Of a stretch of DNA of 64,000 nt, positions 1-15,502 are shown piece by piece. Position 1 is the first letter of the stretch, and every line of letters starts with the position of its first letter. The stretch lies in NCBI RefSeq assembly GCF_049060185.1, contig NZ_JBMEQO010000002.1, one strand, 5' to 3'. Under the pieces are notes generated by a model, which had not been told where the DNA came from, did no database searches, and saw only the letters and a program-made list of their open reading frames with translations. A program made the translations under genes and the position numbers. Source of the DNA: Nannocystis pusilla (GTDB taxonomy: Bacteria > Myxococcota_A > Polyangia > Nannocystales > Nannocystaceae).

Positions 1-950
1 GCATGTGGGCCCCGTTCTTGCTGCTGGTGTGCCGGCTGTTCCAGGGCCTCTCGGTCGGCGGCGAGTACGGCACCACCGCCACGTACATGAGCGAGGTCGC
101 CCTCCAGGGCCGGCGCGGCTTCTTCTCCTCGTTCCAGTACGTCACGCTGATCGGCGGCCAGCTGCTCGCGGTGCTCACGCTCGTGGTGCTCGAACACCTG
201 CTGAGCGAGGCCGAGCTCAAGGCCTGGGGCTGGCGGATCCCCTTCGTCCTCGGCGCGGTCGCGGCGGTGGTCGCCCTGCTGCTCCGCCGCACCCTGCACG
301 AGACCCAGAGCGCCGCGGCCAAGGCCGACGCCGAGGCCGGCAGCGTGGCCGGCCTGCTCCGTCACCACCGCGCCGCGTTCCTGACGGTGCTCGGCTACAC
401 CGCCGGCGGCTCGCTGTTCTTCTACACGTTCACCACGTACATGCAGAAGTACCTGGTCAACACGGTCCACCTGCCGATCCGGACCGCCAGCTACGTGATG
501 ACCGGCGCGCTGTTCGTCTACATGTGCATGCAGCCGGCCTTCGGCGCGCTGTCGGACCGGATCGGCCGACGCACCTGCATGCTGCTGTTCGGCAGCCTCG
601 GCGCGGTGGCCACGGTGCCGATCCTGACCGCCCTGCAGCGCACCACCAGCCCGGTGACCGCCTTCTTGCTTATTCTCGCCGCGCTGTCGATCGTGAGCCT
701 CTACACCTCGATCAGCGGCATCGTCAAAGCCGAGATGTTCCCGCCGGAGGTGCGCGCGCTCGGGGTCGGCCTCGCCTACGCGGTGGCGAACGCGATCTTC
801 GGCGGCTCGGCCGAGTACGTCGCCCTTGCCCTCAAGTCACTCGGCCACGAGACGTCGTTCTTCTGGTACGTGAGCGCGATGATGGTCCTCACCACCCTCG
901 TCAGCCTGCGCCTGCCGCGGCATCCGAGCTACCTGCAGCACGATCCGTGA
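1..950 (+). CDS. MFS transporter, metabolite:H+ symporter family (KgtP/ProP-like), C-terminal part; 5' end lies outside the window
   Basis: ORF 3..950 translates to about 10 TM helices with MHS-family motifs (…[20 protein letters not shown]…, …[20 protein letters not shown]…). It runs off the left edge of the window. Confidence 0.8.
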
Positions 951-974
951 AGCGCGCCGCCGAGCGCGGCGAAT

Positions 975-1045
975 CACATGTCTCTCGGGACAGCCTCGCG
1001 CGACATCGTCCGCGTCGATCCATGCCTGTCCCCGAGAACAGGTCG
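975..1045. repeat. GGACATGTCC-family palindromic repeat cluster
   Basis: CACATGTCTCTCGGGACAGCC…CATGCCTGTCCCCGAGAACAGG. This is an internally inverted version of the 21-nt core GACATGTCCCGAGAGACAGCC seen at 28997. It is intergenic, lying after the MFS stop. Confidence 0.6.
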
Positions 1046-2129
1046 ATCCTCGTCTCCCGCATCGACCCGTCTCCAGGCGCAGGTCGGTCCTCTTGCTCCA
1101 TCCCCCGCGACATCGTCGGCCGCACCAGACCCATCGGCCCGGCGCGTGCGTGCTCTACCGCTGCATGCACCGCCGAGATTTTGCCCTCGGGCTCGTCGCC
1201 GCCGGCGCCTGGGCTTGCGGCGAGCGCCCCACCTCCGCGCCGCCCCTCCTCGCCGCGCGCTCGCGCCCGAGCCCGAGCCCGAGCTCCCCGCGCCCGGTCC
1301 GCCCCCGCCGCCGGTCGCAACTGCGGCCCTCGGCCCGCCCCTCATTACTCGCGCTGCCCTCGACGCCCGCGCCGACGAATTGCGCGAGCGCCACGCCGGC
1401 CGCGGCTTCACCGTCCTCGTCGAGCCGCCCTTCGTCGTCCTCGGCGACGAGTCGCCCGCCGACGTCCAGCGGCGGGCCGATCGCACGATTCACTGGTCGG
1501 TGCTGCGGCTCAAGCAGGACTACTTCGCCCGCGACCCGGCGCGCATCATCGACGTGTATCTGTTCGCCGACCGCGCCAGCTACGGCCGCAACACCCGCGA
1601 GTTGTTCGGCGAGGAGCCAGACACCCCCTATGGCTATTACTCGCCGCGGCACGCCGCCCTGATCATGAACATCGGCACCGGCGGCGGCACCCTCGTCCAC
1701 GAGATCGTCCATCCGTTCATGGCCGCCAACTTCCCCGCCTGCCCCGCCTGGTTCAACGAGGGCCTCGCCTCGCTCTACGAGCAGTGCGGCGAGCACGGCG
1801 GCCGGATCGTCGGCTACCCCAATTGGCGCCTGCCGCACCTGCAGGCCGCCATCCGGTCCCGACGCCTGCGCTCGTTCGCCGAGCTGTGCGCCACCGACTC
1901 CGACGAGTTCTACGGCGCGCGCTCCGGCCTCAATTACGCCCAGGCCCGCTACCTCTGCTATTATTTACAGGAGCAGGATCGCCTGCGCGACTACTATCAT
2001 GCCTTCGTCGCCGGCGCCGACCTCGATCCCGGCGGCTACGCCACCCTGCAGAAGCTCGTCGGCCACCGCGACATGCCCCGCTTCGAGCGCGAGTGGCGGC
2101 GCTTCGTCCTCGACCTGCAGTGGAGCTGA
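978..2129 (+). CDS. Secreted zinc metallopeptidase-like protein (HEIVH … NEGLASLYE, peptidase MA-like); lipoprotein signal in a different frame, so an apparent frameshift
   Basis: The ORF frame carries HExxH plus a downstream NEGLA-x-x-E, the third-ligand motif typical of MA-clan peptidases. A lipobox signal MHRRDFALGLVAAGAWAC starts at 1165 in the +1 frame relative to the catalytic domain. This implies an indel between 1165 and about 1330. Confidence 0.55.
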   Translation: MSLGTASRDIVRVDPCLSPRTGRSSSPASTRLQAQVGPLAPSPATSSAAPDPSARRVRALPLHAPPRFCPRARRRRRLGLRRAPHLRAAPPRRALAPEPEPELPAPGPPPPPVATAALGPPLITRAALDARADELRERHAGRGFTVLVEPPFVVLGDESPADVQRRADRTIHWSVLRLKQDYFARDPARIIDVYLFADRASYGRNTRELFGEEPDTPYGYYSPRHAALIMNIGTGGGTLVHEIVHPFMAANFPACPAWFNEGLASLYEQCGEHGGRIVGYPNWRLPHLQAAIRSRRLRSFAELCATDSDEFYGARSGLNYAQARYLCYYLQEQDRLRDYYHAFVAGADLDPGGYATLQKLVGHRDMPRFEREWRRFVLDLQWS

Positions 2130-2138
2130 GCCGGGCGG

Positions 2139-3257
2139 CTACAGCCCGGCCGCCGCCGCCACCGCCGCCGTCGTCGCCTTGATCACGTCGGTCGCGAACG
2201 CGCGGTCGAGCGTGTCCGGAGTGTCGAGCCCGACCGTGCAGTGATACGCCGGGTTGCGGAACACCCCGGTGTCGAACACGTGCAGCGCCGGCAGGCCGCG
2301 CTCCCAGGCTGCGGTGGTCCGACATGCTCAGCACCCCGAACGCGTCGTCGTCGAGCTTCTCCGCGTCCGTCAGCGTCATCACCCCCGTCAGCCGGCCGAG
2401 GCGCTCCGCCTGCGCCTCCAGCTCGAGCGCGAACGGCTCGGCGGACGCGTCGGCGACCACCGCGATGAAGTCGGCACGGCCCTTGTTCGCCGTCAGCTCG
2501 TCGGCCAGCCCGGGGAACCGCTCCGCCAGCGGCCCCGGGAAGATCTGCGAGTGCTCCGCCGCGCTCGCGTAGCCGATCATGTCGAAGTTGAACGCCACCG
2601 CCAGCTTCGCGCCCGTGAACGACTGCGCGAACGCCCGCGAGCCGCGCAGCCCCAGCTCTTCCTCGTCCCAGCAGGCCACCATCAGCGTGCGCGGCAGCCT
2701 CGCCTGCCCGAGCACGCGCGCCACCTCGAGCGCCCCGGCCACCCCGCTCGCGTTGTCGTCGGCGCCGGGGCAGCCGCTGACGTGATCGTAGTGGGCTGCC
2801 AGCAGCACCACCTCGGACACCGCCGCGGTGCCCTCGCGCGTCCCGATCACGTTGATCCCGGAGCCGTAGTCCTGGCGCTGCACCACGAAGCCCGCCTGCT
2901 CGAGCTCCGCCGCGCAGCGGTCCTGCACCTTCTGCCAGTGGATCGATCCGGGCGGCCGCGGCTGGGCCATGAACGCGACGTCCTCGGCCCAGCGAACCGG
3001 GTCGACGCAATCCATCAGCGCCTCCGGGCTGTCGTGGCCGCAGAGGGACGCGATCCCGACGTCGGGCCCCGGCCCCGTGGTCGTCGGCGCCGCCGTCGTC
3101 CCGCCCGAGCTGCTCGAGCTGCTGGTCCCGCCGGGCGCGCCCGTCTCCGCCGCACCGCTCGTCGTCGTCGCCGCGTCGCTCTCGCCGCTCGTCGCCGGCG
3201 ACGGCACGCACCGAGCCCGAGCCACAACACCCCGACCGCACCGCGGACCGCTCGCAT
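2139..3257 (-). CDS. M28-family zinc aminopeptidase lipoprotein; disrupted by about 2 frameshifts
   Basis: AHYDHVSGCPGADDNASGVAGALEVARVL and EEELGLRGSRAF are M28 hallmarks. The true C-terminus (…WERGLPALHVFDTGVFRNPAYHCTVGLDTPDTLDRAFATDVIKATTAAVAAAAGL*) is in another frame, ending at 2139. The lipobox signal MRAVRGAVGVLWLGLGAC (ATG at 3257) is also out of frame with the Thr/Ser-rich linker. Confidence 0.7.
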
Positions 3258-3292
3258 CGCCGTCACTATAGCACCGGCCCGACCCCTCGCCG

Positions 3293-3775
3293 GTGGATCG
3301 CCCGCCGCCGATCGCTTATGACCGGCGTCATGGCCCACCCCTCACCGAACTCACAGGCTCATGGACCGGCCCCGCGCGCACCTGGCTCGACCCGACTGGC
3401 GGCGAGCCGGACGTCGGCGACTGGCGCGTCCAGATCGAGTCGCTGCTCGACGGCCGCTACGCGCGCCTCCGCTACGACGGCGTGTGCACCGGCAAGCTGC
3501 ACCACGGCGAGATGACCCTCGGCGTCGACGACCACGAGCACACCCTGTACTGGATCGACACCTTCCACACCGGCGCCTCCCCTGTGGTCGATCGGGCCCG
3601 CGGGCCCGCCGTCTCGGTCCTCGGCAGCTACCGCGCCGGCGACCAGCGCTGGGGCTGGCGCACCGCCTTCCGCCGCGACGGCGACGAGCTCGTGATCGAG
3701 GCCACCAACATCGAGCCGAGCGGCGAGGAGACGCGCGCCATCGAGGTCCGCCTCGTCCGCGTCGCGGCTGCCTGA
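3293..3775 (+). CDS. Hypothetical protein (about 160 aa)
   Basis: Clean ORF with coding-like composition (…WRVQIESLLDGRYARLRYDGVCTGKLHHGEMTLGVDDHEHTLYWIDTFHTG…). I recognise no named domain. Confidence 0.45.
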   Translation: MDRPPPIAYDRRHGPPLTELTGSWTGPARTWLDPTGGEPDVGDWRVQIESLLDGRYARLRYDGVCTGKLHHGEMTLGVDDHEHTLYWIDTFHTGASPVVDRARGPAVSVLGSYRAGDQRWGWRTAFRRDGDELVIEATNIEPSGEETRAIEVRLVRVAAA

Positions 3776-3790
3776 TCGACCATGCTCCTC

Positions 3791-3845
3791 GGGACATGCC
3801 CGTTCGGCCATGCCCGCACGGACATGTCCCTCACGGACAGGCGAC
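3791..3845. repeat. GGACATGTCC-family repeat, 14-bp periodic (3 to 4 units)
   Basis: GGGACATGCCCGTTCGGC CATGCCCGCACGGA CATGTCCCTCACGGACAGG. It lies between the convergent gene ends 3775 and 3831. Confidence 0.7.
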
Positions 3846-4983
3846 TATCTGCACGTCGTAGCTGAACGGCTGCGGCACCCCGTTCACCGCCACCGTGTAG
3901 GTCTTGCCGGCCTCCGAGGTCCAGCCCTGCGGTGTCATGGCGATCGCGCTGGCCGAGCCGAACCCGCCCATGAGCGCCGTCGTCTTGACCGGCCGGTCGA
4001 CCCCGCCCTCGCTGATCGTCACCTGCGCCGCGCCGAGGTCGATCGCATCGCTCTGGATCGTCCAGCCCGTCTCGTCGACGTCGGACCACGGCACCTCGGG
4101 CACGTGGATCGCGTCGATCGGCACCACCCGGGCGGCGGCCAGGCCGTCCACGCCGCGTCGCCGCCGCCCTGCCCGCCGATCACCCACATGCACGAGTTGA
4201 CGGCCGTCGATCCGAGCCCGACCGGCCCGAGCCCGTTCGAGAGGATCCACCGCCGGTGGCCGAAGGTCGTCGCATTGCCGGGGTCGACCATGTAGAGGTC
4301 GACCGCGACCACGCCCGGCGTCGACGAGATGTTGCTGTTCTTCGCCGCCTGCGCCCGTCGGCGCTGTAGCAGTCCCACTGCATCGGCGGGTCGTGCGACA
4401 GCTGCCCGTTGGCGTGCATCATCAGCGCGCACTGCTGCGCCTTGGCATTGAGCCCCGCGTCGTGCCCGACCGCCGGCAGCCCGGCCAGCCAGCGGTACAG
4501 GTTGATCAGCCTGAGCGCGTTGTCGCGGCCCGGCGCGCCCGTGTCGCCCGCCTGACAGCCGGCGACCGCCCCGCTCCATGTCCCTTCGGACATGTCCGCA
4601 CGGTCCGCCGTCCAGCGCGCGCACCTCCGCCGCCGGATCGATCGGCTCGCCGGTGGTGGTGATGTCGCCGGTGGTGGTCGTCGAAGCCGCGCTGGACGTC
4701 CCGCTCCCGGTCGGACCTGGCCCCGAGGACACCTCGTCCGGGCCCGTGGTCGTCGTGCCCGCGACGCTCGTGCTCGTCGGCTCCCCGCGGTCGACGCCTC
4801 GCTGGTGCCCGGCGCGCTCGCATCGCTGGTCCCCGGTCCGGTGCTCGCCGCGCTCGCGCCGGTGCTCGTCGCCTCGCTCGCGGTCTCGGGCATACCGATG
4901 CTCTCGGTCACCTCCGCGACGCCCGAATAGCAGCCGACGACGAGCACGGACATTGATGCGAGGACGACGCGAGAGGGCAGCAT
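3831..4983 (-). CDS. CAP/SCP/PR-1 domain lipoprotein with Ser/Thr-rich linker; at least 3 frameshifts
   Basis: Lipobox signal MLPSRVVLASMSVLVVGC. CAP-domain motifs (…NALRLINLYRWLAGLPAV…, …TTFGHRRWILSNGLGP…) are spread over three overlapping ORF fragments (4180..4983, 4019..4732, 3831..4250). Confidence 0.6.
4576..4606. repeat. GGACATGTCC-family repeat (2 units) inside the linker region of the CAP lipoprotein gene
   Basis: CCATGTCCCTTCGGACATGTCCGCACGG. It lies between the Thr/Ser-rich linker and the CAP domain and coincides with a frame change. Confidence 0.6.
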
Positions 4984-5218
4984 CTCATCTCCGCATACGA
5001 CCTGACCGCCGCCGCAGTCAACCGGCGCGCGCCAGGCGACTCGCGCCCGCTCGTGGGGTCGACGAGCCGCGATGCGATCGCGCGACGTCCTCGCTTCACT
5101 CGATCGCGCTCGCGCTCGCCGCCTGCAGACCTGCCGACTCCGGGAGCGAGACGTCGACCGACGACGCGCACCGCTCCACCGCGCCCATGCGCGCCTGCTT
5201 GCGTCGCGCGCCGCGCCG

Positions 5219-7545
5219 TCAGCCCGGCGGCGCGGCCTTGCGGCTCTCGGCCACGATCCGCACCAGGTCGGCCTCGTCCTCGCACAGCGCCACGATCAGG
5301 TCGCCCGGCACCAGAGTCTCGTCCGGCCGCGGGTTGACGATCAGCCGCCGCCGCAGCTCCGCGTGCGACGTCCCGCCCGCCGGCGCCTTGCCGCCCGGAT
5401 CGGCCGTGCGATACAGCCCCAGCGGCACCGCGCCGCCGCGGCCTTGCACCTCGAGCAGCGCGCGTCGGGCCTTGCGCCACGACTGTCCGATGAGCCAGGT
5501 CGGCGCCGGCGCCGTGTAGACCTCGGCGTTGTCGTCGGCGAACGCCACCAAGCGGTTGAACAGCTCCGCGAACGCGCGATCGCGGCACGCCATCACCAGC
5601 CAGCGGTGCGCCAGCGCCTGGCAGTCGACCGGCACCAGCCAGGCCGCGAACGGCGAGAACACCTCCTCGCGCTCCGCCTCCGACGTCTCGACCAGAGTCA
5701 CCGGCAGCGCCGGCGCAGTGCGGGCGATCTCCACCGACGTCGCCGCCACCCCGAGCGTCCGCGCCCGCTGCCCCCGCCGATCGGGTCGCGCGCGCACGCC
5801 TGGTGCACTGCGCGGGCGATCCGCAGCGGATCGTAGCTCGCCCCCGATCCATCGCCGTCGCCGAGCACGATCACCCGGGCGGCCCGCGGCAGCCGCAGCC
5901 CCGCCAGGTCCTCCGGCACCTCCGGGTTCGAGTGGTGGATCGTCAGCGCCTTGACCCGCGCCAGCTGCAGCCGCACCGCCGCGGCAGCGCGTCGGACACC
6001 ACCACGTGCAGCGGCCGGTGTCGCGTCGGCCCCGGGCTGCGCAGCAGGCGGATCAGCGGCAGCATGTCCTCGCGGAAGTTCAGCACCACCAGGTGCCGGT
6101 TGAGCCGCCGCCACAGCCGCGTCTGCTCCTGCGCGAAGATGTTGGTCAGCGTCGCGGTGAACCACGCCAGAAGGCCGAGCCCGAGGATCGTCGCCGCCGC
6201 CCCGACCAGCCGCGCCGTCGGCGTCTTCAGCGTCTCGGTCGTGAAGTTGCCGGTGGCGAACGTGTTCATCTCCCAGAACGAGTCATTCAGCGTCCTGAGC
6301 CTGGCGTTCGAGTCATGTTCCAAGGACCAGACGATGAACGTCGACAGCGTCACCACGCACGCGAACGCCGCGAACGGCACCAGCGGGTTCGAAGCTGGCT
6401 CTCGATCCCCGCGCCCGGGACTCGCCGCCGCCGCAGCGCCCGGCGCACCAGGTACAGCACCACCCCCAGCGCCGCCGCGAACGCCCGCCCTGCAGCCACG
6501 CCTGCCGGCGCTCGCTGGTCTCGTGCAGCTCGGCCACCGGGTGCAGCGGGATCGGCTCGCGCTCGGCGAACCCGCGCCACTCCACGCGGACCTTGAGGCT
6601 CGCGTACTGCTTGTCGCGCGCCAGCTTCTTGAGCCCCTGGACCATCGCCTCGACCGCCAGCCGGCGGTCGGCCAGAAGGCCTCGTCTTCCACCCGCTCGC
6701 GCGGCGTCGCCACCAGCACCACCGAGCTCACGCACACCGTCGGCATGCTGTACTCGAGGCCCGGATAGGTCCCGGTCTCGATCGGGCAGATCCGGTAATA
6801 CGGGTAGCCGTCGATCAGGCGGTTCAGCACCGCCTCGGGCAGCGGGTTCAGGGTCGCCAGGCCGGACGCCAGCACGTCGCGGATCTCCGTGTGCCCGGGC
6901 TCGGTGGTCCGCAGCATCGTCAGCAGCTCGCGCCGGCTCATCGCCGCCAGCGCCTCGTCGGCAGTGCCCGTGAACAGCGGCAGCTGCTCCGCGGTGTGAC
7001 CGGCCGCGCCGAGGATCACCTTGGCCGTCTCGTAGCTGCCCGAGCCGTCCTTGCCCATGAACAGCGGCTCGCGGCCGATCTCGGCGAAGTCGTCGAGGCG
7101 CACCGGCCGGCGCACCAGCACGTGGACCGCCGCGTCGGACACCGCCGCGATCACCCGCAGCTCGGCCTTGTCGGCCTCCTCGGGCGACAGCTTGCACATC
7201 CACCCGCCCTTCGGGATCGCGCTGTCGCCCGCGTCCGCGTCGGCCTGCCCGGCCTTGAACGCCTCCGCCGCCACGTCGTACTGCACCAGCGCCGCGTCGA
7301 GCTCGCCCGACAGCAGCTTGTGCACGTTCTCGCACGAGCCCTTGGTCGACTCCGGCGCGATCGTCACCGCCCCTCGCCCTGGACCGCCTCGGCCAGCGCG
7401 TGCGCGGTCACGTCGAACCCGCCCTTCTTGGCCCCCGAGCCGAAGCGGACCACGATCGCCTCGCCCGCCCGCGCCGCACCTGTCTGCAGGAACATGCCCA
7501 AAGCACAGGCGCGATCGACCATGTCCTCGAGAACATGCCCTTACG
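5219..7545 (-). CDS. TAXI-family solute-binding domain fused to an ion-channel pore and RCK_N/RCK_C cytoplasmic domains (putative ligand-gated channel); several frameshifts
   Basis: TAXI motifs (…FGSGAKKGGFDVTAHALAEAV…, TIAPESTKGSCENVHKLLSGELDAALVQYDVAAEAF, …GYPYYRICPIETGTYPGL…). TM/pore segment (…PFAAFACVVTLSTFIVWSLEH…FATGNFTTETLKTP…LGLGLLAWFTATL…). RCK_N-like (HLVVLNFREDMLPLIRLL…HVVVSD, …RVIVLGDGDGSG…). RCK_C (…LIVNPRPDETLVPGDLIVALCEDEADLVRI…, ORF 5219..5797). The pieces lie in different frames. The N-terminus is not resolved. Confidence 0.5.
7477..7545. repeat. GGACATGTCC-family repeat cluster (about 4 units)
   Basis: CACCTGTCTGCAGGAACATGCCCAAAGCACAGG…CCATGTCCTCGAGAACATGCCC. It overlaps the putative 5' end of the TAXI-channel gene. 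Confidence 0.65.
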
Positions 7546-7616
7546 GCCAGCCCACTGCGCCCGCGACGAGCTCGCTCCGGCCGCGCCGTCCTGCCGCCGC
7601 TCCTTGCGCCCGCGTC

Positions 7617-8405
7617 TCACTCGGCCTCCCCGGTCAGCACCAGCAGCGCGCTCGCGTCGCGCAGCGGGCGGGAGGGCGGCGGGCTCAGCAGCATCGCGTC
7701 CGGCCCGCCTTCGCCGGGCGCGAACAGCCCGATCAGCGTCACCGGGCGGCCGCGGCGGTCGACCTCCACGTTCAGGCAGGCCTCGCGGAACGTCCCCGCG
7801 CGCAGCTCCGGCGGCACCGGCCAGGTCTCGACGCGCAGGCGCCCGCCGAGCAGCGCCAGCATGAAGCGGAACGCCCCGAGGTCGACGCACGCGTGGGCCA
7901 GCAGCGCCGCGCGGAGAAAGCCCGGGTAGAAGATCGTCGCCACCCCCAGGCCCTCGAACTCGTGGGTCGCCTCCGGGTCCTCGACCGCCACCACCACGTG
8001 CGGCGGCTTGCCCTTGCAGGCGCGCAGGATCGCCGTGCACACCAGGCGCGAGAACGCGTCGGTTTCGCCGTGGCCGCGCAGCGGCAGCACGATGATCGCG
8101 TCGGCCGCCGGCAGCCCGGCGGTGTCGGCGAAGAAGCGCGCCAGCGCCTCGACCCCGCCGCTCGCCGATCCCTGCCAGTACTTTTGGACATGTCCCGCGG
8201 GCAACTCGGCCAGCGCCGCCGCGACCGCCTCCACCGGCGCCGGCCCGATCAGCGTCAGCTCCGGCGCCGGCTCGGCCGCCGCGATCGCCCGCACCAGCCC
8301 GAGCGCCTCCGGCGTCCAGTGGATCACCACCCAGCGCGGCCTCGTCGGCCCCGGGAGCCCCGTTGCGAAGTCCTCCGCCGCCGCAGTGTCCCCGCGCTCC
8401 GTCAC
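7617..8405 (-). CDS. CASTOR/POLLUX-type RCK (TrkA-N-like) domain protein
   Basis: …AADAIIVLPLRGHGETDAFSRLVCTAILRA…HVVVAVEDPEATHEF…ACVDLGAFRFMLALLGG… aligns with the RCK region of CASTOR/DMI1-family channels. Stop at 7617. Start is tentatively GTG at 8405. Confidence 0.5.
   Translation of the reverse strand: MTERGDTAAAEDFATGLPGPTRPRWVVIHWTPEALGLVRAIAAAEPAPELTLIGPAPVEAVAAALAELPAGHVQKYWQGSASGGVEALARFFADTAGLPAADAIIVLPLRGHGETDAFSRLVCTAILRACKGKPPHVVVAVEDPEATHEFEGLGVATIFYPGFLRAALLAHACVDLGAFRFMLALLGGRLRVETWPVPPELRAGTFREACLNVEVDRRGRPVTLIGLFAPGEGGPDAMLLSPPPSRPLRDASALLVLTGEAE
8184..8198. repeat. Single GGACATGTCC unit inside the CASTOR-like CDS
   Basis: TTGGACATGTCCCGC encodes …AGHVQKYW… in frame. Confidence 0.5.
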
Positions 8406-8763
8406 GCCGCCGCAGCGTCCGCCCCCGCGCGCCCACCTGTCAAGCCGCCTCGCCGCCTTTCGTCGCCGACACGATCGCTCGCAACGGCGCCGATGAACGC
8501 GGCCGATTGTCCAGCCCGACGATCCAGCCTCACGCCGAACGCATGCGCTGCCGTTCGCCGCGCGCGTCCTTCGAGTGCCCTCGCTCATCGCTCCGCATGC
8601 GACTCGCCGCGGATGAACGCGGCCTCATGCTCTTGCCGCGCGCGAGGCTCCGACGCGACGATCGGTCGTGACACGCTCGCGTCGGCGCAGGGGCCCGCTC
8701 CTCCACGCGCGCTCGCATCGGCGCGGTTGCCCGGACTCGCCGCGCGCGTGATAGCGTCGGCGC

Positions 8764-9554
8764 CTGCGCTCCACCGAGATCCTCGCGCTGGCGCTCATCG
8801 CGCTGGTCTCCTTCGGCCTCAGCTACATCGGCGCCACCGTCGGGCTCGTGCTCGGTCAGCTGCGGGTGGCCCTCCTCGTCTACGCCCTCGGCAGCCCCGT
8901 CGCCGGGGCCGCCACCAGCCTCGCCATCTCCACCGCCGGCACCCTCACCGGCACCTGGCGCCACGCCCGCGACGGCCGCGTCAGCCTGTGGCTGCTGGCC
9001 AGCGTCGGCGCCCCCTCGGCCGTCGCCGCCTTCGCCACCGCGCGCTGGGCCGGCAGCGTCGACGCCCGCCTCCTCAAGGCCGCCATCGCCGGCGTCCTCC
9101 TGCTCACCGGCGCCGCCATGCTGCGCCGCCGGCCCGAGCCCACCGGTCCTTCCGAACATGTCCCTTCGCGCACCTTCGCCGTCCTCGCCGAGGTCGTCGT
9201 CGGCGCCGTCCTCGGCGCGATCTCGAGCCTCGTCGGCCTCCTCCTCGGCAGCCTGCGCCTGCCGGCCATGATCCGCTACGCCCGCGTCCCCCGCCCGTGG
9301 CCGTCGGCACCAACATGGCGATCGGCGCAGTCACCGGGCTGTCGGCCGGCGTCGCCACCTTCCTCGAGGGACAGGTCGACCTCACCGCCTTCGCGGTCGT
9401 CACCCCGCTCACCCTGCTCGGCGCCAACCTCGGCGCCCGCCGCACCGGCGACCTCGACCCCGACAGCCTGCGCCGCTGGATCGCCTGGATCCTGCTCCTG
9501 TCCGCCGCCCTGATGCTCGGCGAACTCGGCCTCGAGCTGCGCCGCACCGCCTGA
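8764..9554 (+). CDS. TauE/SafE (DUF81) family membrane exporter; 1 frameshift near 9295
   Basis: 4+4 TM halves with Gly-rich TauE motifs (…LVSFGLSYIGATVGLVLGQ…; …MAIGAVTGLSAGVATFL…LLGANLGARRTG…). Stop at 9554. Start uncertain. Confidence 0.65.
9148..9175. repeat. Single GAACATGTCC unit in the central loop codons of TauE
   Basis: CCTTCCGAACATGTCCCTTCGCGCACC encodes …GPSEHVPSRT… in the inter-half loop. Confidence 0.55.
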
Positions 9555-9723
9555 CCGGCGGCTCTCGTCGCCGGGCCTGCGCGACGACTCGGCCGCGAGC
9601 TCCACCGGCTCACCCAATCAGCCGCTCGCAGCGCCTGGCCCCACGCGACGATTCGGCCGCGGGCTCCACTCCCGGCTGGACCGGCCGCTTTCGTCGCGCG
9701 GCCCCGCGCGCTACCTTTCGCTC

Positions 9724-11615
9724 GTGTCCGAGCGCGACCGCTTCCTCGCCTTCGCCGCCCGGGCCGTGCCCGTCGCGTTCGGCGCCCGGCCGGCGCCCGG
9801 CGAGCTCGCCGCCCACTGGCGGGCCGCGACCCAGGCGATCGGCGCCCGCCTCGTCCTCGCCTGCGCGCGCGAGCGCCTCGTCGAATTCGACCTTCAGGAC
9901 ATGTCCCTTCGCACATGTTCCTTGAGCCTCCCGCTGCGACGGCGCCGGGCCTTCGAGCTGCACGCCGCCGACCTCGACTGCGCCGACCTCCCCGACCTCC
10001 CCGACCTGCTCCCACGCCTCCTGCCCGCGCTCGCCCCCGCCGCCCGCGCCCGGATCGCGCGCGAGCTCGCCGACAGCCGCTGGAACCTCGCCCTCGCCCG
10101 CCTCGCCGCCGACCTGCGCCATCGGACATGCTCTGAAGGCCAGCCTTGGCCTGCCCCGCTCGACCCCGAGAACCTGGTCGTCGACGGTCACCCGTGGCAC
10201 CCGATGAGCAAGACCCGGCTCGGCCTGCGCGCCTGGGAGAACCTGCGCCACGGCCCCGACCTCCTGGCCCAGGCAGCGGTCCACGCCGTCGACGTCGCCG
10301 CCGAACACGCCCAGCTGGCCGAGCCGGCCCTCTACGCCGACCTCGCGCGCGCCCTGTTCCCGGCCCCGCCGCCTGGCCTGGTCCGCCTGCCCGTCCACGC
10401 CCTTCAGCTACGCCGCCTCCCGCGCCTGCTCGGCCCGCTGTGGGGCCGCGAGGTCCGCCCCGCCGGCCTGCCCCCGCTCCACGCGCGGGCCCTGCTCAGC
10501 CTGCGCACCGTCGCCCTCGCCGCGCCCGCGCTGCACCTCAAGCTCGCCGTCGACATCCACACCACCAGCGCGCGGCGCCAGGTCTCGCCCGCCTCGGTCC
10601 ACAACGGCCCGGCGATCGCCGCCCTCCTGGCCGCGATCCAGGCCGCCGATCCGCAGACCCGCCGCGGCCTGCAGATCCAGCCCGACCTCGCCGCCGCCGG
10701 CCTGCACCTCGCCACGGCCCCGCCGCCGGCCAGCTCGGCGTCGTCCTTCGCCCCGATCCGCTCCCCTCGCCCGACAGCTCCACGCCGACCTCGCCGCACC
10801 CGCCGACCCGTCCCGCGCGACGTCGACCGCCCCGGACTCGCCCGCCGGCACACCTGCCTCTTCCGACCTGTCCTCCGAGACATTACCCTCACGACATGCC
10901 CCCTGGGACCTGTCCCGCGCGACATATTCATTCAATCATGTCCGATCGCGCACCCCGCAGCTCGTCGTCTGCGCCGCCCTCGGCGAGCGCCGGCCCGGCG
11001 GCGACCTCCTGTTGCGCGAGCTCGCCGCCGACTACCCCGGCGATCCGCGCGCGCGTCTCGCGGCCTTCTTCCACGACTACCTCGACCTCCTCGTCCCCGC
11101 GGCCCTGCGCCTGCTCACCGCCCACGGCGTCGCCCTCGAGGCGCACCTGCAAAACACCCTCCTCGTCCACGCCGGGCGCCCTGCGGCTTCGTCGTCCGCG
11201 ACCTCGGCGGAGTGCGGCTCCACCGCGGGCGGCTGGCCGCGGCCGGCCATGCCCCCGCGCTCGCCCCCGACTCCTTCACCTTGACCTCCGACCTCGCCGA
11301 GGCTCAGGGCAAGCTGCTGCACACCCTCGTGCACGCCCACCTCGCGGCTGTGATCGGTTGGGTCGACGACGCCGGCGGCCCCGACCCCGACGTCCTGTGG
11401 CCCGCGGTGCGACGGATCTGCCAGCGCGAGTGGGATCGCTGGGCCGCCGATCCGGCGCTCGCGCGCGCGTGCGCCGACGATCGCGCGTTCTTCTTCGCGG
11501 CCACCTGTCGCAGCAAGGCGCTGCTGCGCATGCGCATCGACGAACGCGTCAGCGATTACGCCTATACCGAGGTCGCCAACGCGCTCGCCGAGGGGTACTC
11601 TTCCCCGCCGCATGA
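9724..11615 (+). CDS. IucA/IucC-family NIS siderophore synthetase with C-terminal FhuF-like domain; frameshifted
   Basis: …[17 protein letters not shown]…, …[29 protein letters not shown]…, …[16 protein letters not shown]…[11 protein letters not shown]… lie in three frames. The stop overlaps the downstream ATG (ATGA). Repeat units sit inside it at 9891..9925, 10124..10135 and 10866..10945. Confidence 0.7.
9891..9925. repeat. GGACATGTCC-family repeat (2 units) inside the IucA/IucC N-terminal codons
   Basis: CCTTCAGGACATGTCCCTTCGCACATGTTCC encodes …[11 protein letters not shown]…. Confidence 0.55.
10866..10945. repeat. GGACATGTCC-family repeat cluster (about 5 units) in the middle of the IucA/IucC gene
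   Basis: GACCTGTCCTCCGAGACATTACCCTCACGACATGCCCCCTGGGACCTGTCCCGCGCGACATATTCATTCAATCATGTCCGATCGCG. It coincides with a reading-frame switch. Confidence 0.65.
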
Positions 11616-12540
11616 CGACCCGTCCGCTCGTGTTCGCCACCCCCGAGTACGGCTACTTGCAGGCCGCGCTGTGCGGCTCGGCCGCGCTGGAGGCCGGCGA
11701 GATCGACACCTTCGCCTTCCCTGACGGCGAGCGCTACCTCCGCCTCGTCACCCCGGTCGAGGGCCGCGACGTCGTCCTGATCGGCGGCACCGTCGACGAC
11801 GCCGCCGCGCTCACCCTGTTCGACCTCGCCTGCGGCGCCGTCCATTACGGCGCCCGCCGCCTCACCCTCGTCGTCCCCTACTACGGCTACGCGACGATGG
11901 AGCGCTCGACCAAGCCCGGCGAGGTCGTCACCGCCAAGACCCGCGCCGCGCTGTTCTCGGCCATCCCGCCGGCCTCCTACGGCAACCGCGTGCTCCTCCT
12001 CGACCTCCACGCCGAGGGCATCCCGCACTACTTCGAGGCCGGCCTGGTCGCCACCCACGTCTACGCCAAGCCGGTCATCCGCGACATCATCCTCGACATC
12101 GCCGGCGGCCAGCCCTTCGTGCTCGCCTGCACCGACGCCGGCCGCGCCAAGTGGGTCGAGTCGCTGGCCAACGACCTCGGGGTCACGGCAGCCTTCGTGT
12201 TCAAGCGCCGCCACGACGGCGAGCGCACCGAGATCACCGCCATCGACGCCCAGGTCGCCGGCAAGCCGGTCATCCTCTACGATGACATGATCCGCACCGG
12301 CGGCTCGCTGATCGGCGCCGCCCGGGCTATCAGCGCGCCGGCGCCGTCAGCCTGGCCGCGGTCGCCACCCACGGCATCTTCCCCGGCGACGCCCTGCACA
12401 AGCTGCAGGCCACCGGCCTGTTCTCCGCCATCGCCTGCACCGACAGCCACCCCGCGCGCGCGCCCTCGCGGCCGCCAGCGCCGGCGACCCGACCCCGCTG
12501 CGGGTCGCCTCGATCGCCCCCTCCTCGCGCCTCACCTCGC
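11612..12540 (+). CDS. Ribose-phosphate pyrophosphokinase (Prs)-family protein; 1 frameshift near 12330
   Basis: …[21 protein letters not shown]…, …[20 protein letters not shown]… (PRPP-binding loop). Confidence 0.7.
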
Positions 12541-12578
12541 AGGACATGTCCTTTAGACCCTGTCCCCGGAGACATTGA
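12541..12578. repeat. GGACATGTCC-family repeat immediately upstream of the nadE ATG
   Basis: AGGACATGTCCTTTAGACCCTGTCCCCGGAGACATTGA-ATG. It contains a GGAG that could serve as SD. Confidence 0.7.
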
Positions 12579-14556
12579 ATGCACCTCGTCCGCGTCGCCG
12601 CCGCCGCCCTCAACCAGACGCCGCTCGACTGGGACGGCAACCAGGCCCGGATCGTCGAGGCGATCCGCCTGGCCCGCCGCGAGGGCGTCGCCGTCCTGTG
12701 CCTGCCCGAGCTGTGCATCCCCGGCTACGGCTGCGAGGACGCGTTCTTCGGCCGCGGCACGATCCTCGAGTCGTGGCGGATCTTGCAGGAGCTGCTGCCC
12801 GAGACGAAGGGCATGGTCGTCGCGCTCGGCCTGCCGATCATGCACCGCGCCGCCAACTACAACGCGGTCTGCCTGGTCGCCGACGGCCACATCGTCGGCC
12901 TGGTCGGCAAGCGCTTCCTCGCCGGCGACGGCATTCACTACGAGCCGCGGTGGTTCAAGGGCTGGCCGGCCGGCAAGTTCGTGCAGTGGGAGCACGACGG
13001 CCACAGCTACCCGCTGGGCGACCAGATCTTCGAGGTCGGCGGCCTGCGGATCGGCTTCGAGATCTGCGAGGACGCGTGGGTCCCGAACCGCCCCGGCGTC
13101 GAGCTCGCCAGCCAGGGCGTCGACGTGATCTGCAACCCCAGCGCCAGCCACTTCGCGTTCGGCAAGCACGAGGTGCGCAAGCAGATCGTCCTCAACGCCT
13201 CACGCAGCTTCCGCGCCACCTACGTCTACTCCAACTTCATCGGCAACGAGGCCGGCCGCGTCATCTACGACGGCGAGTGCATGATCGCCTCATCCGGCCA
13301 CCTGATCGCCGAGGGCCGCGGCTCGGCTACAAAGACGTCTACGTCACCAGCGCCGTGGTCGACGTCGACCTCGCGCGCATGGTCCACGCGCGCACGACCT
13401 ACGCGCCCACGGTCGACGACAATGTCCGCCGGATCACCCGGTTCGACATGCAGCTGCCGACCGCCGACCTGCCGCCGCACGCCATCGCCCCCGACGACGC
13501 GCTGCGCAACGACAAGCGCGAGGAGTTCTCGCGCGCCGTCGCTCTCGGCCTGTTCGACTACCTGCGCAAGAGCCGGTCGCGCGGCTTCGTCGTCTCGCTC
13601 AGCGGCGGCGCCGACTCGGCCGCGGTCGCCTACCTCGTCCACCTCATGGTCACTCTGGCCACGCAGGAGCTCGGCGTCGCGGCCACCTGCGCCCGCCTCG
13701 GCCTGCCCGAGGGCTCGTGCACCACCCCGCGGGCGATCGTGCGGGCGCTCCTGACTTGCGTCTACCAGGCGACCGCCAACAGCTCCGACACCACCCGCAA
13801 CGCCGCCCGCGCGGTCGCCGAGGCCGTCGGCGCCGAGTTCCTCGAGTTCGACGTCGACCCGCTCGTGCGCGCCTACGTGCGCACGGTCGAGGGCGCGATC
13901 GGCCGCGAGCTCGGCTGGAAGAGCGACGACATCGCCCTGCAGAACATCCAGGCCCGCGCCCGCGCCCCGGCGTGTGGCTGCTGGCCAACCTGCGCGGCGC
14001 CCTCCTGCTGGCCACCAGCAACCGCAGCGAGGCCGCCGTCGGCTACGCCACCATGGACGGCGACACCTGCGGCGGCCTGTCGCCGATCGCCGGCATCGAC
14101 AAGGCCTTCCTGCGCCAGTGGCTGCGGTGGGTCGAGCTCGAGGGCCCCGCCGGCGTCGGCCCCACGCCGGCCCTGAGCGCCGTCAACGTCCAGGCCCCGA
14201 CCGCCGAGTTGCGGCCCGCCGGGGCCAAACAGACCGACGAGGACGACCTGATGCCGTACCCGATCCTCGACGTCATCGAGCGCGCCGCCATCCGCGACAA
14301 GCTCGCGCCGAAAGAGGTCTACCGGGTCCTCGCCAGCCGCTTCCCCGAGCACGGCCGCGACCAGCTGCTGCTGTGGATCAAGCGCTTCTTCCGCCTGTGG
14401 AGCCAGAACCAATGGAAGCGCGAGCGCTACGCCCCGAGCTTCCACCTCGACGACGAGAACCTCGACCCCAAGACGTGGTGCCGCTTCCCGATCCTCTCGG
14501 GCGGCTTCGTGCGCGAGCTCGCCGAGCTCGACAACGTCGTGCCGAAGAGCGGCTGA
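12579..14556 (+). CDS. nadE: Glutamine-dependent NAD+ synthetase (nitrilase + NAD synthase domains); about 2 frameshifts
   Basis: N-terminal CN-hydrolase (…LCLPELCIPGYGCEDAF…, …GFEICEDAWVPNRP…). C-terminal NAD synthase (…GFVVSLSGGADSAAVAYLV…). Pieces in ORFs 12579.., 12575.., 13717... Confidence 0.85.
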
Positions 14557-14565
14557 GCCTGGCTA

Positions 14566-14598
14566 GGGGCATGTCCCCGAGGACATCCCGCAGGACGC
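14566..14598. repeat. GGACATGTCC-family repeat (2 to 3 units) downstream of nadE
   Basis: GGCTAGGGGCATGTCCCCGAGGACATCCCGCAGGAC. Confidence 0.65.
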
Positions 14599-14756
14599 GC
14601 GCCCCCGCGATCGCGGTTGAGCCTGCCAGGCGATTCCGACCTGCCCGAAAAGACAGCCGCCCGACCGCCGGTAAAATCCCCGGCCTCCCGCGCCTGAGAT
14701 CGCCGCGGCGCAGCACCTGCGCGGGCGTGCAGCCGATCGCGCGCTAGCCTGCCCGT

Positions 14757-15458
14757 ATGCGCCGAACGAGCCTCTCGCTGTGCCTGCTCGTCGCGTGCGC
14801 CGCCGCCATGGACGAACCGTCACATGCCCGCAGCCGGATGGTCGAGCAGCAGCTCGTCGCGCGCGACATCACGGACGAGGCTGTCCTCTCCGCCATGCGC
14901 CGGGTCCCACGCGAGCGCTTCGTCCCGCCGGAGGATCAGCGCTACGCCTTCGGCGATCATCCGCTGCCGATCGGCCACGGGGCCACGATCAGCCAGCCCT
15001 ATGTCGTCGCGCTCATGACCCAGCTGGCGCATGTCAAGCGGGGCGACCGCGTCCTCGACGTCGGCACCGGCTCCGGCTATCAGGCCGCCGTCCTCGCGGA
15101 GATGGGCGCCGAGGTCTACAGCATCGAGGTCGTCACCGACCTCGCGGAGCGAGCCGCGACGCTGCTCGCAGAGCTCGGCTACGACAACGTCCACGTGCGC
15201 GCCGGCGACGGCTACCGCGGCTGGCCCGAGGCCGCGCCGTTCTCCGCCATCATCGTCGCCGCCGCCGCGCCCACCCTCCCGCGCCCGCTCACCGAACAGC
15301 TGGCCGTCGGCGGCCGCCTGGTGATCCCCATCGGCGAATTCGTGCAGGACCTGCAGGTCCTGGAGAAACGCCCGCGCGGCGACCTGCACGTCGAGACCGT
15401 CCTGCCGGTGCGCTTCGTGCCGATGGTCGGCGAGGTCGAATCGCAGCCGCGGTACTGA
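14757..15458 (+). CDS. pcm: Protein-L-isoaspartate O-methyltransferase with N-terminal signal/lipobox
   Basis: …GHGATISQPYVVALMTQ…, …VLDVGTGSGYQAAVLAEMG…. The ORF is intact. Confidence 0.85.
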   Translation: MRRTSLSLCLLVACAAAMDEPSHARSRMVEQQLVARDITDEAVLSAMRRVPRERFVPPEDQRYAFGDHPLPIGHGATISQPYVVALMTQLAHVKRGDRVLDVGTGSGYQAAVLAEMGAEVYSIEVVTDLAERAATLLAELGYDNVHVRAGDGYRGWPEAAPFSAIIVAAAAPTLPRPLTEQLAVGGRLVIPIGEFVQDLQVLEKRPRGDLHVETVLPVRFVPMVGEVESQPRY

Positions 15459-15502
15459 CGGCTGCCCCGACCCGTTGTGAATCACTCCGCGGAGAGCCGC
15501 CG

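What the first reader, a model, noticed from the sequence alone, without database searches (positions are those of the whole stretch)
5219..8405. Putative ligand-gated ion-channel module: a TAXI solute-binding domain fused to a pore and RCK domains, plus an adjacent stand-alone CASTOR/POLLUX-like RCK protein
One minus-strand gene combines a periplasmic TAXI-family substrate-binding domain, a two-TM pore region and cytoplasmic RCK_N/RCK_C domains. In TRAP-associated transporters the TAXI domain is the extracytoplasmic receptor. The pore lacks a canonical TVGYG K+ filter; its sequence is TFATGNFTTETL. Immediately upstream lies a gene encoding only a CASTOR/DMI1-like RCK region. A substrate-binding domain coupled to a channel resembles the iGluR/GluR0 design but uses a TAXI domain instead. 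I am not aware of characterised TAXI-gated channels, so the architecture may be novel, although it is currently fragmented by frameshifts.
Basis: partly seen in the sequence, partly recalled or inferred. Interest (0 to 1): 0.6.

Follow-up and report, generated by a model that had tools for sequence, protein, structure and literature searches.

The report
TAXI-sensor cation channel with split RCK ring
A Nannocystis (myxobacterial) gene pair encodes what looks like an uncharacterised ion channel with a periplasmic nutrient-binding (TAXI) domain outside, a non-standard pore, and a cytoplasmic regulatory ring built from two separate proteins; the apparent frameshifts are sequencing errors.

Summary
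Gene B lies on the minus strand at 5219-7536. Once seven single-base deletions are repaired it encodes a 774-aa protein. Its order is signal peptide, TAXI solute-binding domain, TM0, a 2-TM pore with the invariant filter FATGNF, and one RCK domain. Intact orthologues exist, for example in N. exedens (774 aa, 91-93% identity). I found about 120 in Nannocystaceae.

The deletions are assembly errors. The same kind occurs in every neighbouring gene, and gene B's dN/dS (0.29) equals that of its intact neighbours.

Gene A (7617-8405, 262 aa, intact) is a stand-alone RCK protein. Its model matches MthK and CASTOR by fold, and its profile matches DMI1 and CASTOR by sequence. It is homologous to gene B's own RCK. 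It sits directly upstream in 37 of 37 loci that have upstream DNA.

My best reading is a tetrameric cation channel that is not K+-selective. It would be gated from outside by a TAXI-bound organic anion and from inside by a gating ring of four RCK domains from gene B and four from gene A. This is a split version of the CASTOR/BK tandem-RCK ring. The architecture is shown; conduction and gating are inferred.

Related TAXI-pore-RCK proteins occur in Acidobacteriota and Planctomycetota MAGs. I found no publication describing the architecture. Verdict: a new variant of a known kind, interest about 0.6.

The parts
5219..7536 (-). Gene B. After repair of seven 1-bp deletions it encodes a 774-aa TAXI / TM0 / pore / RCK protein. 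The stop codon is at 5219-5221.
   Evidence: Frameshift-aware alignment to P0001. 91% identity over 100% of the query for the first stitched protein; 93.4% for the repaired protein. Intact 774-aa ORFs in L006 and L007.
7466..7536 (-). Signal peptide, aa 1-24: MFSRTWSIAPVL(L)GMFLQTGAARA|G. It contains the deletion near 7500.
   Evidence: The cleavage site is inferred; no predictor was run.
6541..7465 (-). Periplasmic TAXI solute-binding domain, aa 25-333. It carries a family-specific insert at about aa 95-125 and four invariant cysteines.
   Evidence: PF16868 E 1.3e-23. TIGR02122 E 4e-23. PDB profile 1us4 3e-28. AF2 pLDDT above 90 and Foldseek 1us4 E 4e-19.
6446..6501 (-). TM0, aa 347-365. It continues the last TAXI helix into the membrane and spans the deletion near 6486.
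   Evidence: Hydropathy peak 1.84. It is followed by a loop with 6 K/R. AF2 predicts one continuous helix over 334-371.
6321..6383 (-). TM1, the outer helix of the pore domain, aa 387-407.
   Evidence: Hydropathy 2.13. AF2 helix 387-408. Translation.
6222..6320 (-). Turret, pore helix and filter, aa 408-440: EHDSNARLRTLNDSFWEMNTFATGNFTTETLKT. The filter FATGNF is at 6243-6260.
   Evidence: Translations. This is the most conserved segment of the family: 43 invariant columns in about 90. It aligns with TTVGYGD in canonical relatives.
6138..6221 (-). TM2, the inner helix, aa 441-468.
   Evidence: Hydropathy 1.89, followed by a segment with 5 K/R. AF2 helix 441-469. Translation.
5222..6104 (-). 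Cytoplasmic RCK domain of gene B, aa 480-774, with N-lobe and C-lobe. It has no GxGxxG motif.
   Evidence: hhalign to the gene A family: probability 96%, E 3.7e-9, 232 columns. Slo-like_RCK in 16/30, TrkA_C in 6/30 and Castor_Poll_mid in 4/30 homologues, all sub-threshold. AF2 confidence is low here.
7617..8405 (-). Gene A: stand-alone RCK protein of 262 aa with a GTG start. It is intact and is the proposed trans subunit of the gating ring.
   Evidence: 100% identical to the NCBI N. pusilla hypothetical protein P0121. AF2 pLDDT 85.6. Foldseek MthK RCK 8e-11, CASTOR 9e-9, DMI1 2e-7. Profile hits DMI1 at 6e-6. Directly upstream in 37/37 loci.
7537..7616 (-). 80-nt spacer between gene A and gene B. 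It is about 51 nt longer than in N. exedens. An imperfect dyad of the GGACATGTCC-like motif overlaps the gene B ATG.
   Evidence: Sequence. Insertions relative to L001. Motif enrichment.

Best explanation
Genes A and B together most likely encode a tetrameric P-loop cation channel with two sensors.

Shown:
- Gene B is a single polypeptide. Its order is a cleavable signal peptide, a periplasmic TAXI Venus-flytrap binding domain, a tether helix TM0, a short Arg-rich cytoplasmic loop, then TM1, pore helix, filter and TM2, and finally one cytoplasmic RCK domain.
- Gene A is a soluble paralogous RCK protein. It is always encoded immediately upstream. In many genomes its stop overlaps the gene B start.

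Inferred:
- Four gene B subunits form the pore.
- Their four RCK domains pair with four gene A subunits to form an eight-RCK gating ring. This is the arrangement that CASTOR/DMI1 and BK build from two tandem RCKs in one chain, and that MthK builds with a soluble RCK made from an internal start codon.
- The ring responds to a cytoplasmic ligand. Ca2+ or another cation is the guess by analogy. NAD is unlikely because the Rossmann glycine motif is missing.
- Closure of the TAXI domain around a periplasmic ligand acts on the pore. The route would be the rigid TAXI-TM0 helix and/or contact with the unusually conserved turret.
- The ligand is probably a carboxylate-type organic anion rather than glutamate. 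The key Gln and Ser of glutamate-binding TAXIs are kept. The Glu that binds the amino group is lost, and a Tyr lining the pocket is replaced by a nearly invariant Arg.
- The filter FATGNF lacks the glycines of TVGYG and the Asp of CASTOR. The channel is therefore expected to be a cation channel that is not K+-selective.

The frameshifts in the window are sequencing errors, so the gene is most likely functional in the organism.
For: Fusion and order of domains:
- Intact orthologues and Pfam/NCBIfam/PDB hits for TAXI.
- Three hydrophobic segments with K/R-rich loops on the predicted cytoplasmic side.
- AF2 secondary structure shows helix 334-371 running from TAXI into TM0, a pore helix at 418-429 and TM2 at 441-469.

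Pore homology:
- phmmer from the C-terminal part reaches canonical Ion_trans_2 + RCK channels. P0233 scores E 2.5e-12, and its Ion_trans_2 domain scores 1.7e-29.
- The filter aligns with TTVGYGD.
- Lig_chan hits occur in 27/30 family members, best 7.7e-4, sub-threshold.
- The pore is the most conserved region.

RCK domains:
- Gene A fold and profile hits to MthK, CASTOR, DMI1, Slo1 and GsuK.
- Gene A is homologous to the cytoplasmic domain of gene B.

Split ring:
- Gene A is upstream on the same strand in 37/37 loci, with overlapping stop and start in L002-L004.
- Gene A was not found apart from this neighbourhood. Many gene A hits share contig lengths with gene B hits.
- Distant relatives of about 1000 aa carry two RCKs in one chain.
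- CASTOR uses two tandem RCKs to form an eight-RCK ring (PMC6697748).

Ligand site: mapping of VcGluP residues (PMC11574862) through the HMM alignments.

Not a pseudogene:
- 1-bp deletions occur in all neighbouring genes.
- The same seven sites are intact in three other Nannocystis genomes.
- dN/dS is 0.285, against 0.29 and 0.27 for the neighbouring gene A and TauE.
Against: - No functional data exist for any member.
- No Pfam ion-channel or RCK model reaches its curated cut-off on this protein.
- The AF2 monomer model has only moderate confidence in the pore (pLDDT 60-78) and low confidence in the RCK of gene B.
- The A-B interaction and the 4+4 stoichiometry could not be modelled with these tools.
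- The TAXI domain has a single covalent link to the channel, unlike the three linkers of iGluRs. The mechanical coupling is therefore speculative.
- The ligand-site mapping rests on sequence alignment, not on a superposed structure.
- The distant single-RCK clade has no gene-A-like partner in the one locus examined, so a trans RCK is not a general requirement of TAXI-channels.
- Conserved synteny within one bacterial family may partly reflect shared ancestry.
Confidence: 0.6

Rival explanations
1. The channel is gated only from inside by its RCK ring. The TAXI domain does not gate. It could concentrate a solute near the pore, anchor the complex in the periplasm, or hand a ligand to another partner such as the divergently encoded TauE-family permease.
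For: There is only one covalent link (TM0) between the TAXI domain and the pore. A TauE gene lies divergently next to gene A in 33/37 loci. Some TAXI proteins are known to serve non-TRAP partners, for example TAXI-GltS (PMC12344293).
Against: The binding-site motifs of the TAXI domain are invariant across the family, and the extracellular turret is almost invariant. This fits a specific TAXI-pore interface. The fusion to a pore is kept in three phyla, including clades without TauE nearby.
Confidence: 0.17
2. This is a binding-protein-dependent uptake system rather than an ion channel. The TAXI domain would deliver its bound solute into a widened, non-selective pore, giving facilitated diffusion of an organic ion.
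For: All characterised TAXI proteins deliver substrates to transporters (PMC5812351; PMC12344293). The filter lacks the K+-channel signature.
Against: The membrane part is homologous to tetrameric P-loop cation channels and has a pore helix and filter of normal length. No member of that superfamily is known, to my knowledge, to conduct organic acids. RCK rings are regulators of ion channels and ion transporters.
Confidence: 0.08
3. Gene B is a decaying pseudogene in this strain, and the seven frameshifts are real.
For: Seven frame breaks lie in 2.3 kb. NCBI annotates only a 474-aa fragment, P0082.
Against: All seven are 1-bp deletions at G/C positions, mostly next to G/C runs. There are no in-frame nonsense mutations and no larger lesions. 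The same error type occurs roughly every 400-700 bp in NAD synthase, PRPP synthase, IucA/IucC, TauE and the CAP-domain gene nearby. dN/dS is 0.285, equal to the neighbouring gene A and TauE.
Confidence: 0.04

Closest known systems
CASTOR / POLLUX / DMI1 (plant nuclear-envelope RCK-gated Ca2+ channels)
   Same: Tetrameric P-loop pore with a non-TVGYG filter that contains a Gly-Asn pair. CASTOR has ADS(A)GNHA (PMC6697748); this protein has FATGNF. The RCK domains lack the Rossmann glycine motif. Gene A matches the DMI1 and CASTOR gating-ring structures by sequence profile and by fold. Castor_Poll_mid hits occur in the superfamily. The ring would have eight RCK domains.
   Different: There is no Asp in the filter; Asp is the residue proposed to give CASTOR its Ca2+ selectivity. 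The two RCKs are on two polypeptides instead of in tandem. A periplasmic TAXI domain and TM0 replace the N-terminal TM segments of the plant proteins. The host is bacterial.
MthK (archaeal Ca2+-gated K+ channel)
   Same: A 2-TM pore with one RCK per channel subunit, plus four soluble RCK subunits that complete an eight-RCK ring (established knowledge). MthK RCK is the best fold match to gene A, E 8e-11.
   Different: In MthK the soluble RCK has the same sequence as the tethered one and is made from an internal start codon. Here it is a diverged paralogue, about 19% identical over the hhalign match, encoded by its own gene. MthK has a TVGYG filter and no extracellular sensor.
iGluR / GluR0 (binding-protein-gated tetrameric channels)
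   Same: The concept is the same: an extracellular Venus-flytrap binding domain fused to a tetrameric P-loop pore. The family gives weak Lig_chan hits. The first TAXI structure, 1us4, was deposited as 'putative GluR0 ligand binding core'.
   Different: A different binding-protein family is used (TAXI/PF16868, not the class used by iGluRs). The domain is contiguous and N-terminal rather than split (S1/S2) around the pore. It has one tether helix instead of three linkers. The pore orientation is K+-channel-like, inferred from topology. An RCK ring is present.
TAXI-TRAP and TAXI-GltS transporters
   Same: Same binding-domain family and fold. Several ligand-site residues are conserved. A precedent exists for TAXI fused to a non-TRAP membrane protein, TAXI-GltS (PMC12344293).
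   Different: No DctQM or GltS membrane component is in the neighbourhood. The fused membrane part is a channel pore, not an elevator-type transporter.

Membership tests
TAXI solute-binding proteins (PF16868 / TIGR02122) | Sequence match above the curated cut-off | tested here: met
   PF16868 scores 84.5 bits against a cut-off of 27. All 30 homologues match, best 5e-31. TIGR02122 scores 81.7 bits, just under its 84.35 cut-off, on the stitched sequence.
TAXI solute-binding proteins (PF16868 / TIGR02122) | Two-lobe Venus-flytrap fold like TtGluBP/VcGluP | tested here: met
   The AF2 model of P0001 has pLDDT above 90 over the domain. Foldseek matches 1us4 at E 3.9e-19 with TM 0.74, and 8s4j at 8.5e-16.
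TAXI solute-binding proteins (PF16868 / TIGR02122) | Works with a fused DctQM TRAP membrane component encoded nearby | tested here: not met
   No DctQ/DctM gene lies within 6-8 kb on either side in L001-L004. The domain is fused to a channel instead.
TAXI solute-binding proteins (PF16868 / TIGR02122) | Glutamate-type binding site (VcGluP Y45, S75, Q93, E125, Y200, M201) | tested here: inconclusive
   Mapping through the HMM alignment gives Q93 to Q86 and S75 to S68 (both invariant), Y45 to F41 (F or Y in the family), E125 to A136, Y200 to R210 and M201 to T211. The site is partly kept. The ligand is probably different.
Tetrameric P-loop cation channels (K+-channel superfamily) | TM / pore helix / filter / TM unit homologous to known channels | tested here: met
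   phmmer from P0118 reaches Ion_trans_2 + RCK proteins, for example P0233 at E 2.5e-12. The pore regions align. Hydropathy and AF2 helices agree.
Tetrameric P-loop cation channels (K+-channel superfamily) | Pfam Ion_trans_2 or Lig_chan above the gathering score | tested here: not met
   Ion_trans_2 matches 1/30 at E 0.04. Lig_chan matches 27/30, best 7.7e-4. All are below cut-off.
Tetrameric P-loop cation channels (K+-channel superfamily) | T-V-G-Y-G K+ selectivity signature | tested here: not met
   The filter is FATGNF and is invariant in the family.
Tetrameric P-loop cation channels (K+-channel superfamily) | Tetramer that conducts ions | not testable with these tools
   This needs multimer modelling, cryo-EM or electrophysiology.
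CASTOR/POLLUX/DMI1 channels | RCK domains related to the CASTOR/DMI1 gating ring | tested here: met
   The gene A profile hits 7vm8 at 6.1e-6 and 6o6j at 4.5e-4. Foldseek matches 6o7a at 9e-9 and 7vm8 at 1.9e-7. Gene B's RCK is homologous to gene A.
CASTOR/POLLUX/DMI1 channels | Filter AD(S/A)GNHA with the Asp needed for activity | tested here: not met
   FATGNF shares only G-N. The Asp position is Ala.
CASTOR/POLLUX/DMI1 channels | Two tandem RCK domains in one subunit | tested here: not met
   Gene B has one RCK. The second is the separate gene A. Some distant relatives of about 1000 aa do have two in one chain.
CASTOR/POLLUX/DMI1 channels | Pfam Castor_Poll_mid above cut-off | tested here: not met
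   It matches 4/30 close homologues, best E 7.3e-3, below the cut-off of 26.7 bits. It is above cut-off only in distant relatives P0268 (31.1 bits) and P0248 (27.2 bits).
iGluR / GluR0 | Binding domain split into S1 and S2 around the pore, with the pore loop entering from the cytoplasm | tested here: not met
   The TAXI domain is contiguous and N-terminal. The topology places the pore loop on the periplasmic side.
MthK-type RCK channels | Soluble RCK subunit completing an eight-RCK ring | tested here: inconclusive
   A soluble RCK (gene A) is encoded next to the channel in 37/37 loci. Assembly into a ring could not be tested.

The most novel reading that the evidence does not exclude
This would be an independently evolved binding-protein-gated P-loop channel. 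An extracellular TAXI domain and an intracellular two-gene (split) CASTOR-type RCK ring would jointly gate a pore with a new filter type (FATGNF). It would give a tractable bacterial relative of the plant symbiosis channels CASTOR/POLLUX/DMI1, and a second natural solution, besides iGluRs, for coupling a Venus-flytrap receptor to an ion pore.
Probability: 0.4. Interest if true: 0.75.

Novelty: new variant of a known kind. Interest (0 to 1): 0.6.

Why it matters
Only one natural lineage, iGluR/GluR0, is known to couple a periplasmic-binding-protein fold to a tetrameric ion pore. A TAXI-fused channel would be a second, mechanistically different solution, with a single tether helix, K+-channel orientation and an added RCK ring.

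It would also be a bacterial relative of CASTOR/POLLUX/DMI1 that can be expressed. The selectivity and gating of those plant channels are still debated.

It would extend TAXI proteins from transport into electrical or ionic signalling, in social, predatory and often marine myxobacteria.

In practical terms, more than 100 such proteins are currently annotated only as 'TAXI family TRAP transporter solute-binding subunit'. That label hides the channel part.

Tried and rejected
- **Pseudogene reading: rejected.** The indel pattern, the neighbouring genes and dN/dS all argue against it.
- **The ~1100-aa homologues as fusions of gene A with gene B: rejected.** They carry two tandem TAXI domains instead.
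- **Direct Pfam or PDB sequence support for the pore and RCK of gene B.** I found only sub-threshold or non-significant hits: KCNQ at E 0.35 and DMI1 at E 0.85. I therefore used family-wide scans, hhalign to gene A, and distant relatives.
- **Foldseek with the full-length model.** It returned only binding proteins. The pore and RCK parts were swamped and have low pLDDT.
- **Riboswitch or other RNA family, sigma-70 promoter and intrinsic terminator scans of 5000-9800 and 5000-9000.** Nothing was found.
- **Literature.** I used eight searches. Six combined TAXI, TRAP, solute-binding, ion/potassium channel, RCK, fusion, PF16868/TIGR02122 and prokaryotic iGluR relatives; the other two covered CASTOR/DMI1 and VcGluP. 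None gave a description of a TAXI-fused channel. The library lacks most subscription journals, so absence is not proof.
- **A gene-A-like partner in a distant clade.** It is absent in the one locus I looked at, L045.
- **One look-up failed.** P0014 is not on record.


Full report
**Source and sequence quality**

The window is about 73% G+C. It comes from a Nannocystis pusilla chromosome. The 474-aa ORF at 5943-7367 is identical to the NCBI protein P0082, and gene A is identical to P0121. Both lie on a 12.69-Mb N. pusilla contig.

On the minus strand between 8405 and 5219, the coding signal for the second gene jumps between all three frames. I aligned the intact N. exedens orthologue P0001 to the DNA with a frameshift-aware method. 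The alignment gave one continuous 774-codon gene from the ATG at 7536 to the stop at 5219-5221. It is interrupted seven times, and each interruption is the loss of exactly one base.

DNA alignments to N. exedens and to three other Nannocystis genomes place the missing bases at about 7500, 7366, 6675, 6486, 6392, 5977 and 5773. Each missing base is a G or C, mostly next to G/C runs. In L006 and L007 the gene is an uninterrupted 774 codons.

The same kind of 1-bp deletion occurs every few hundred bases in the neighbouring genes: NAD synthase, PRPP synthase, IucA/IucC, TauE and the CAP-domain gene. Gene B's dN/dS against N. exedens is 0.285. Gene A (intact) gives 0.29 and TauE gives 0.27. I conclude that the frameshifts are errors of this assembly and not decay of the gene.

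**The fused protein (gene B)**

The repaired protein is 93.4% identical to P0001. A search of 5.8 billion proteins returned 120 hits. Nearly all are full-length at about 760-830 aa, and those with organism names come from Nannocystis, Enhygromyxa, Plesiocystis, Pseudenhygromyxa, Paraliomyxa and related MAGs. They are annotated only as TAXI or TRAP substrate-binding proteins or as hypothetical. A scan of GTDB species representatives found 40 loci, all Nannocystaceae or other Myxococcota. The versions of about 1100 aa carry two tandem TAXI domains.

The TAXI assignment is solid:
- PF16868 scores E 1.3e-23, 84.5 bits against a cut-off of 27.
- TIGR02122 scores E 4e-23, just under its cut-off.
- The family profile matches TAXI crystal structures 1us4/8u79 at 3e-28 and VcGluP 8s4j at 3e-18.
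- The AF2 model of P0001 has pLDDT above 90 over this domain. Foldseek returns 1us4 (E 4e-19, TM 0.74) and the other TAXI structures first.

After the TAXI domain there are three hydrophobic segments, at aa 347-365, 387-405 and 445-463. The loop after the first has 6 K/R, and the segment after the third has 5 K/R. Together with the N-terminal signal peptide, this gives the following topology:
- TAXI domain outside.
- TM0 crossing from out to in.
- TM1 crossing from in to out.
- A re-entrant pore loop on the periplasmic side.
- TM2 crossing from out to in.
- C-terminal domain inside.

AF2 predicts one continuous helix from the end of the TAXI domain through TM0 (334-371). It also predicts a pore helix at 418-429 and an inner helix at 441-469, with moderate confidence.

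The pore segment LEHDSNAR(L/V)RTLNDSFWEMN(T/M)FATGNF is the most conserved part of the family. About 43 of 90 columns are invariant, against about 16-18% in the TAXI and RCK parts. FATGNF is encoded at 6243-6260.

**Is it a channel pore?**

No Pfam channel model reaches its cut-off. Lig_chan gives weak hits in 27 of 30 homologues (best 7.7e-4), and Ion_trans_2 hits one.

An exhaustive phmmer search with the C-terminal part (P0118) against 1.84 billion representatives found only 74 proteins. Three groups stand out:
- Canonical Ion_trans_2 + RCK channels. P0233 scores E 2.5e-12, and its Ion_trans_2 domain scores 1.7e-29.
- A large, divergent set of proteins of about 700-770 aa.
- A smaller set of about 1000 aa.

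I scanned 51 of the longer, more distant hits. Of these, 40 carry the TAXI domain, 36 Slo-like_RCK, 24 Castor_Poll_mid, 21 TrkA_N and 14 Ion_trans_2.

In a joint alignment the filter position reads TT(V)GYGD in the canonical members, LFSGLEDR in the distant TAXI-channels and FATGNF here. The membrane part is therefore a diverged member of the tetrameric P-loop channel superfamily with a non-K+ filter.

The distant TAXI-channel clade occurs in Thermoanaerobaculia (Acidobacteriota) and Planctomycetaceae MAGs.

**Gene A and the RCK domains**

Gene A (7617-8405, 262 aa) has no Pfam hit above threshold. Its family profile matches the DMI1 gating-ring structure 7vm8 at E 6.1e-6 and CASTOR 6o6j at 4.5e-4. 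Its AF2 model (pLDDT 85.6) matches MthK RCK (8e-11), the CASTOR ring (9e-9), Slo1, GsuK and DMI1.

A profile-profile comparison aligns gene A over 232 columns with residues 480-758 of gene B, at 96% probability and E 3.7e-9. Gene B therefore carries one RCK of the same CASTOR-like type. Both lack the GxGxxG motif. In its place they have VVLNFREDM (gene B) and VVIHWTPEAL (gene A), as the sequences show directly.

Gene A is found immediately upstream on the same strand in all 37 related loci that contain upstream DNA. Its stop overlaps the gene B start in Plesiocystis, in strain ST9 and in the most distant metagenomic member.

CASTOR builds its eight-RCK ring from two tandem RCKs per subunit (PMC6697748). 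The TAXI-channels of about 1000 aa have two RCKs in one chain. Here the second RCK appears to be supplied in trans. That is the basis for the split-ring model. The model is inferred and not shown.

**Ligand**

I mapped the VcGluP glutamate-site residues (PMC11574862) through the HMM alignments:

| VcGluP residue | Residue here | Conservation in the family |
|---|---|---|
| Q93 | Q86 | invariant |
| S75 | S68 | invariant |
| G156 | G167 | invariant |
| Y45 | F41 | F or Y |
| E125 (binds the amino group) | A136 | not scored (consensus a/s/g) |
| D157 | S168 | invariant |
| Y200 | R210 | at least 90% |

The 1us4 alignment agrees on the Tyr-to-Arg change. The pocket is conserved within the family but differs from glutamate-binding TAXIs. 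An organic anion is plausible, but its identity is unknown.

The family also has an insert of about 30 residues (aa 95-125, with the invariant C115) and four invariant cysteines. This fits a periplasmic location.

**Comparison with known systems, and novelty**

The protein works most like an RCK-gated channel of the CASTOR or MthK kind with an added iGluR-like extracellular receptor. It fails defining features of each family:
- No TVGYG signature.
- No Asp in the CASTOR-type filter.
- No tandem RCK in one chain.
- No split S1/S2 binding domain.
- No TRAP membrane partner nearby.

Eight literature searches and checks of the TRAP/TAXI reviews and the prokaryotic iGluR survey found no description of a TAXI-fused channel. 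I rate it a new variant of a known kind.

The architecture has high confidence. The function as a channel with two inputs has moderate confidence.

Noticed in passing
whole window; e.g. 3820-3829, 4588-4597, 8186-8195, 26910/26923, 31579/31593, 46811/46825, 50791/50805: The palindrome GGACATGTCC, allowing one mismatch, occurs 30 times against 1.7 expected. It often appears as two copies 14 nt apart. One copy lies inside the gene A coding sequence. An imperfect dyad overlaps the gene B start codon. The motif explains the recurrent 'RTCPxGH' peptides in spurious ORFs. It could be a regulator binding site or a short repeated element.
   Followed up: partly
window about 8764-9554 (+), with a frameshift near 9290: A TauE/SafE-family permease gene is transcribed divergently from gene A. 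The same arrangement is found in 33 of 37 related Nannocystaceae loci. Any functional link to the channel is unknown. It hints at a sulfonate or sulfite-type ligand.
   Followed up: partly
window 1-15500, all genes compared: Single-base deletions relative to N. exedens occur every few hundred bases in coding regions: NAD synthase, PRPP synthase, IucA/IucC, TauE, the CAP-domain gene and M28 peptidase. The assembly is error-prone, so any 'frameshifted gene' in this window should be treated with suspicion.
   Followed up: yes
L002, L030, L036, L039 (Plesiocystis, Enhygromyxa and MAG loci); proteins P0014, P0015, P0030: Some marine relatives have channel genes of about 1100 aa with two tandem TAXI domains before the pore. 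This suggests two ligand inputs or a pseudo-dimeric receptor.
   Followed up: partly
L010 (N. pusilla Na p29), gene at 3501-5806: The GTDB representative of N. pusilla also shows a premature stop at codon 532 of this gene, caused by a single-base indel relative to the window. This is probably another assembly error.
   Followed up: no
window 7537-7616: The spacer between gene A and gene B is 80 nt here and 30 nt in N. exedens. In Plesiocystis, ST9 and a metagenomic relative the two genes overlap. The spacer is variable within Nannocystis.
   Followed up: partly
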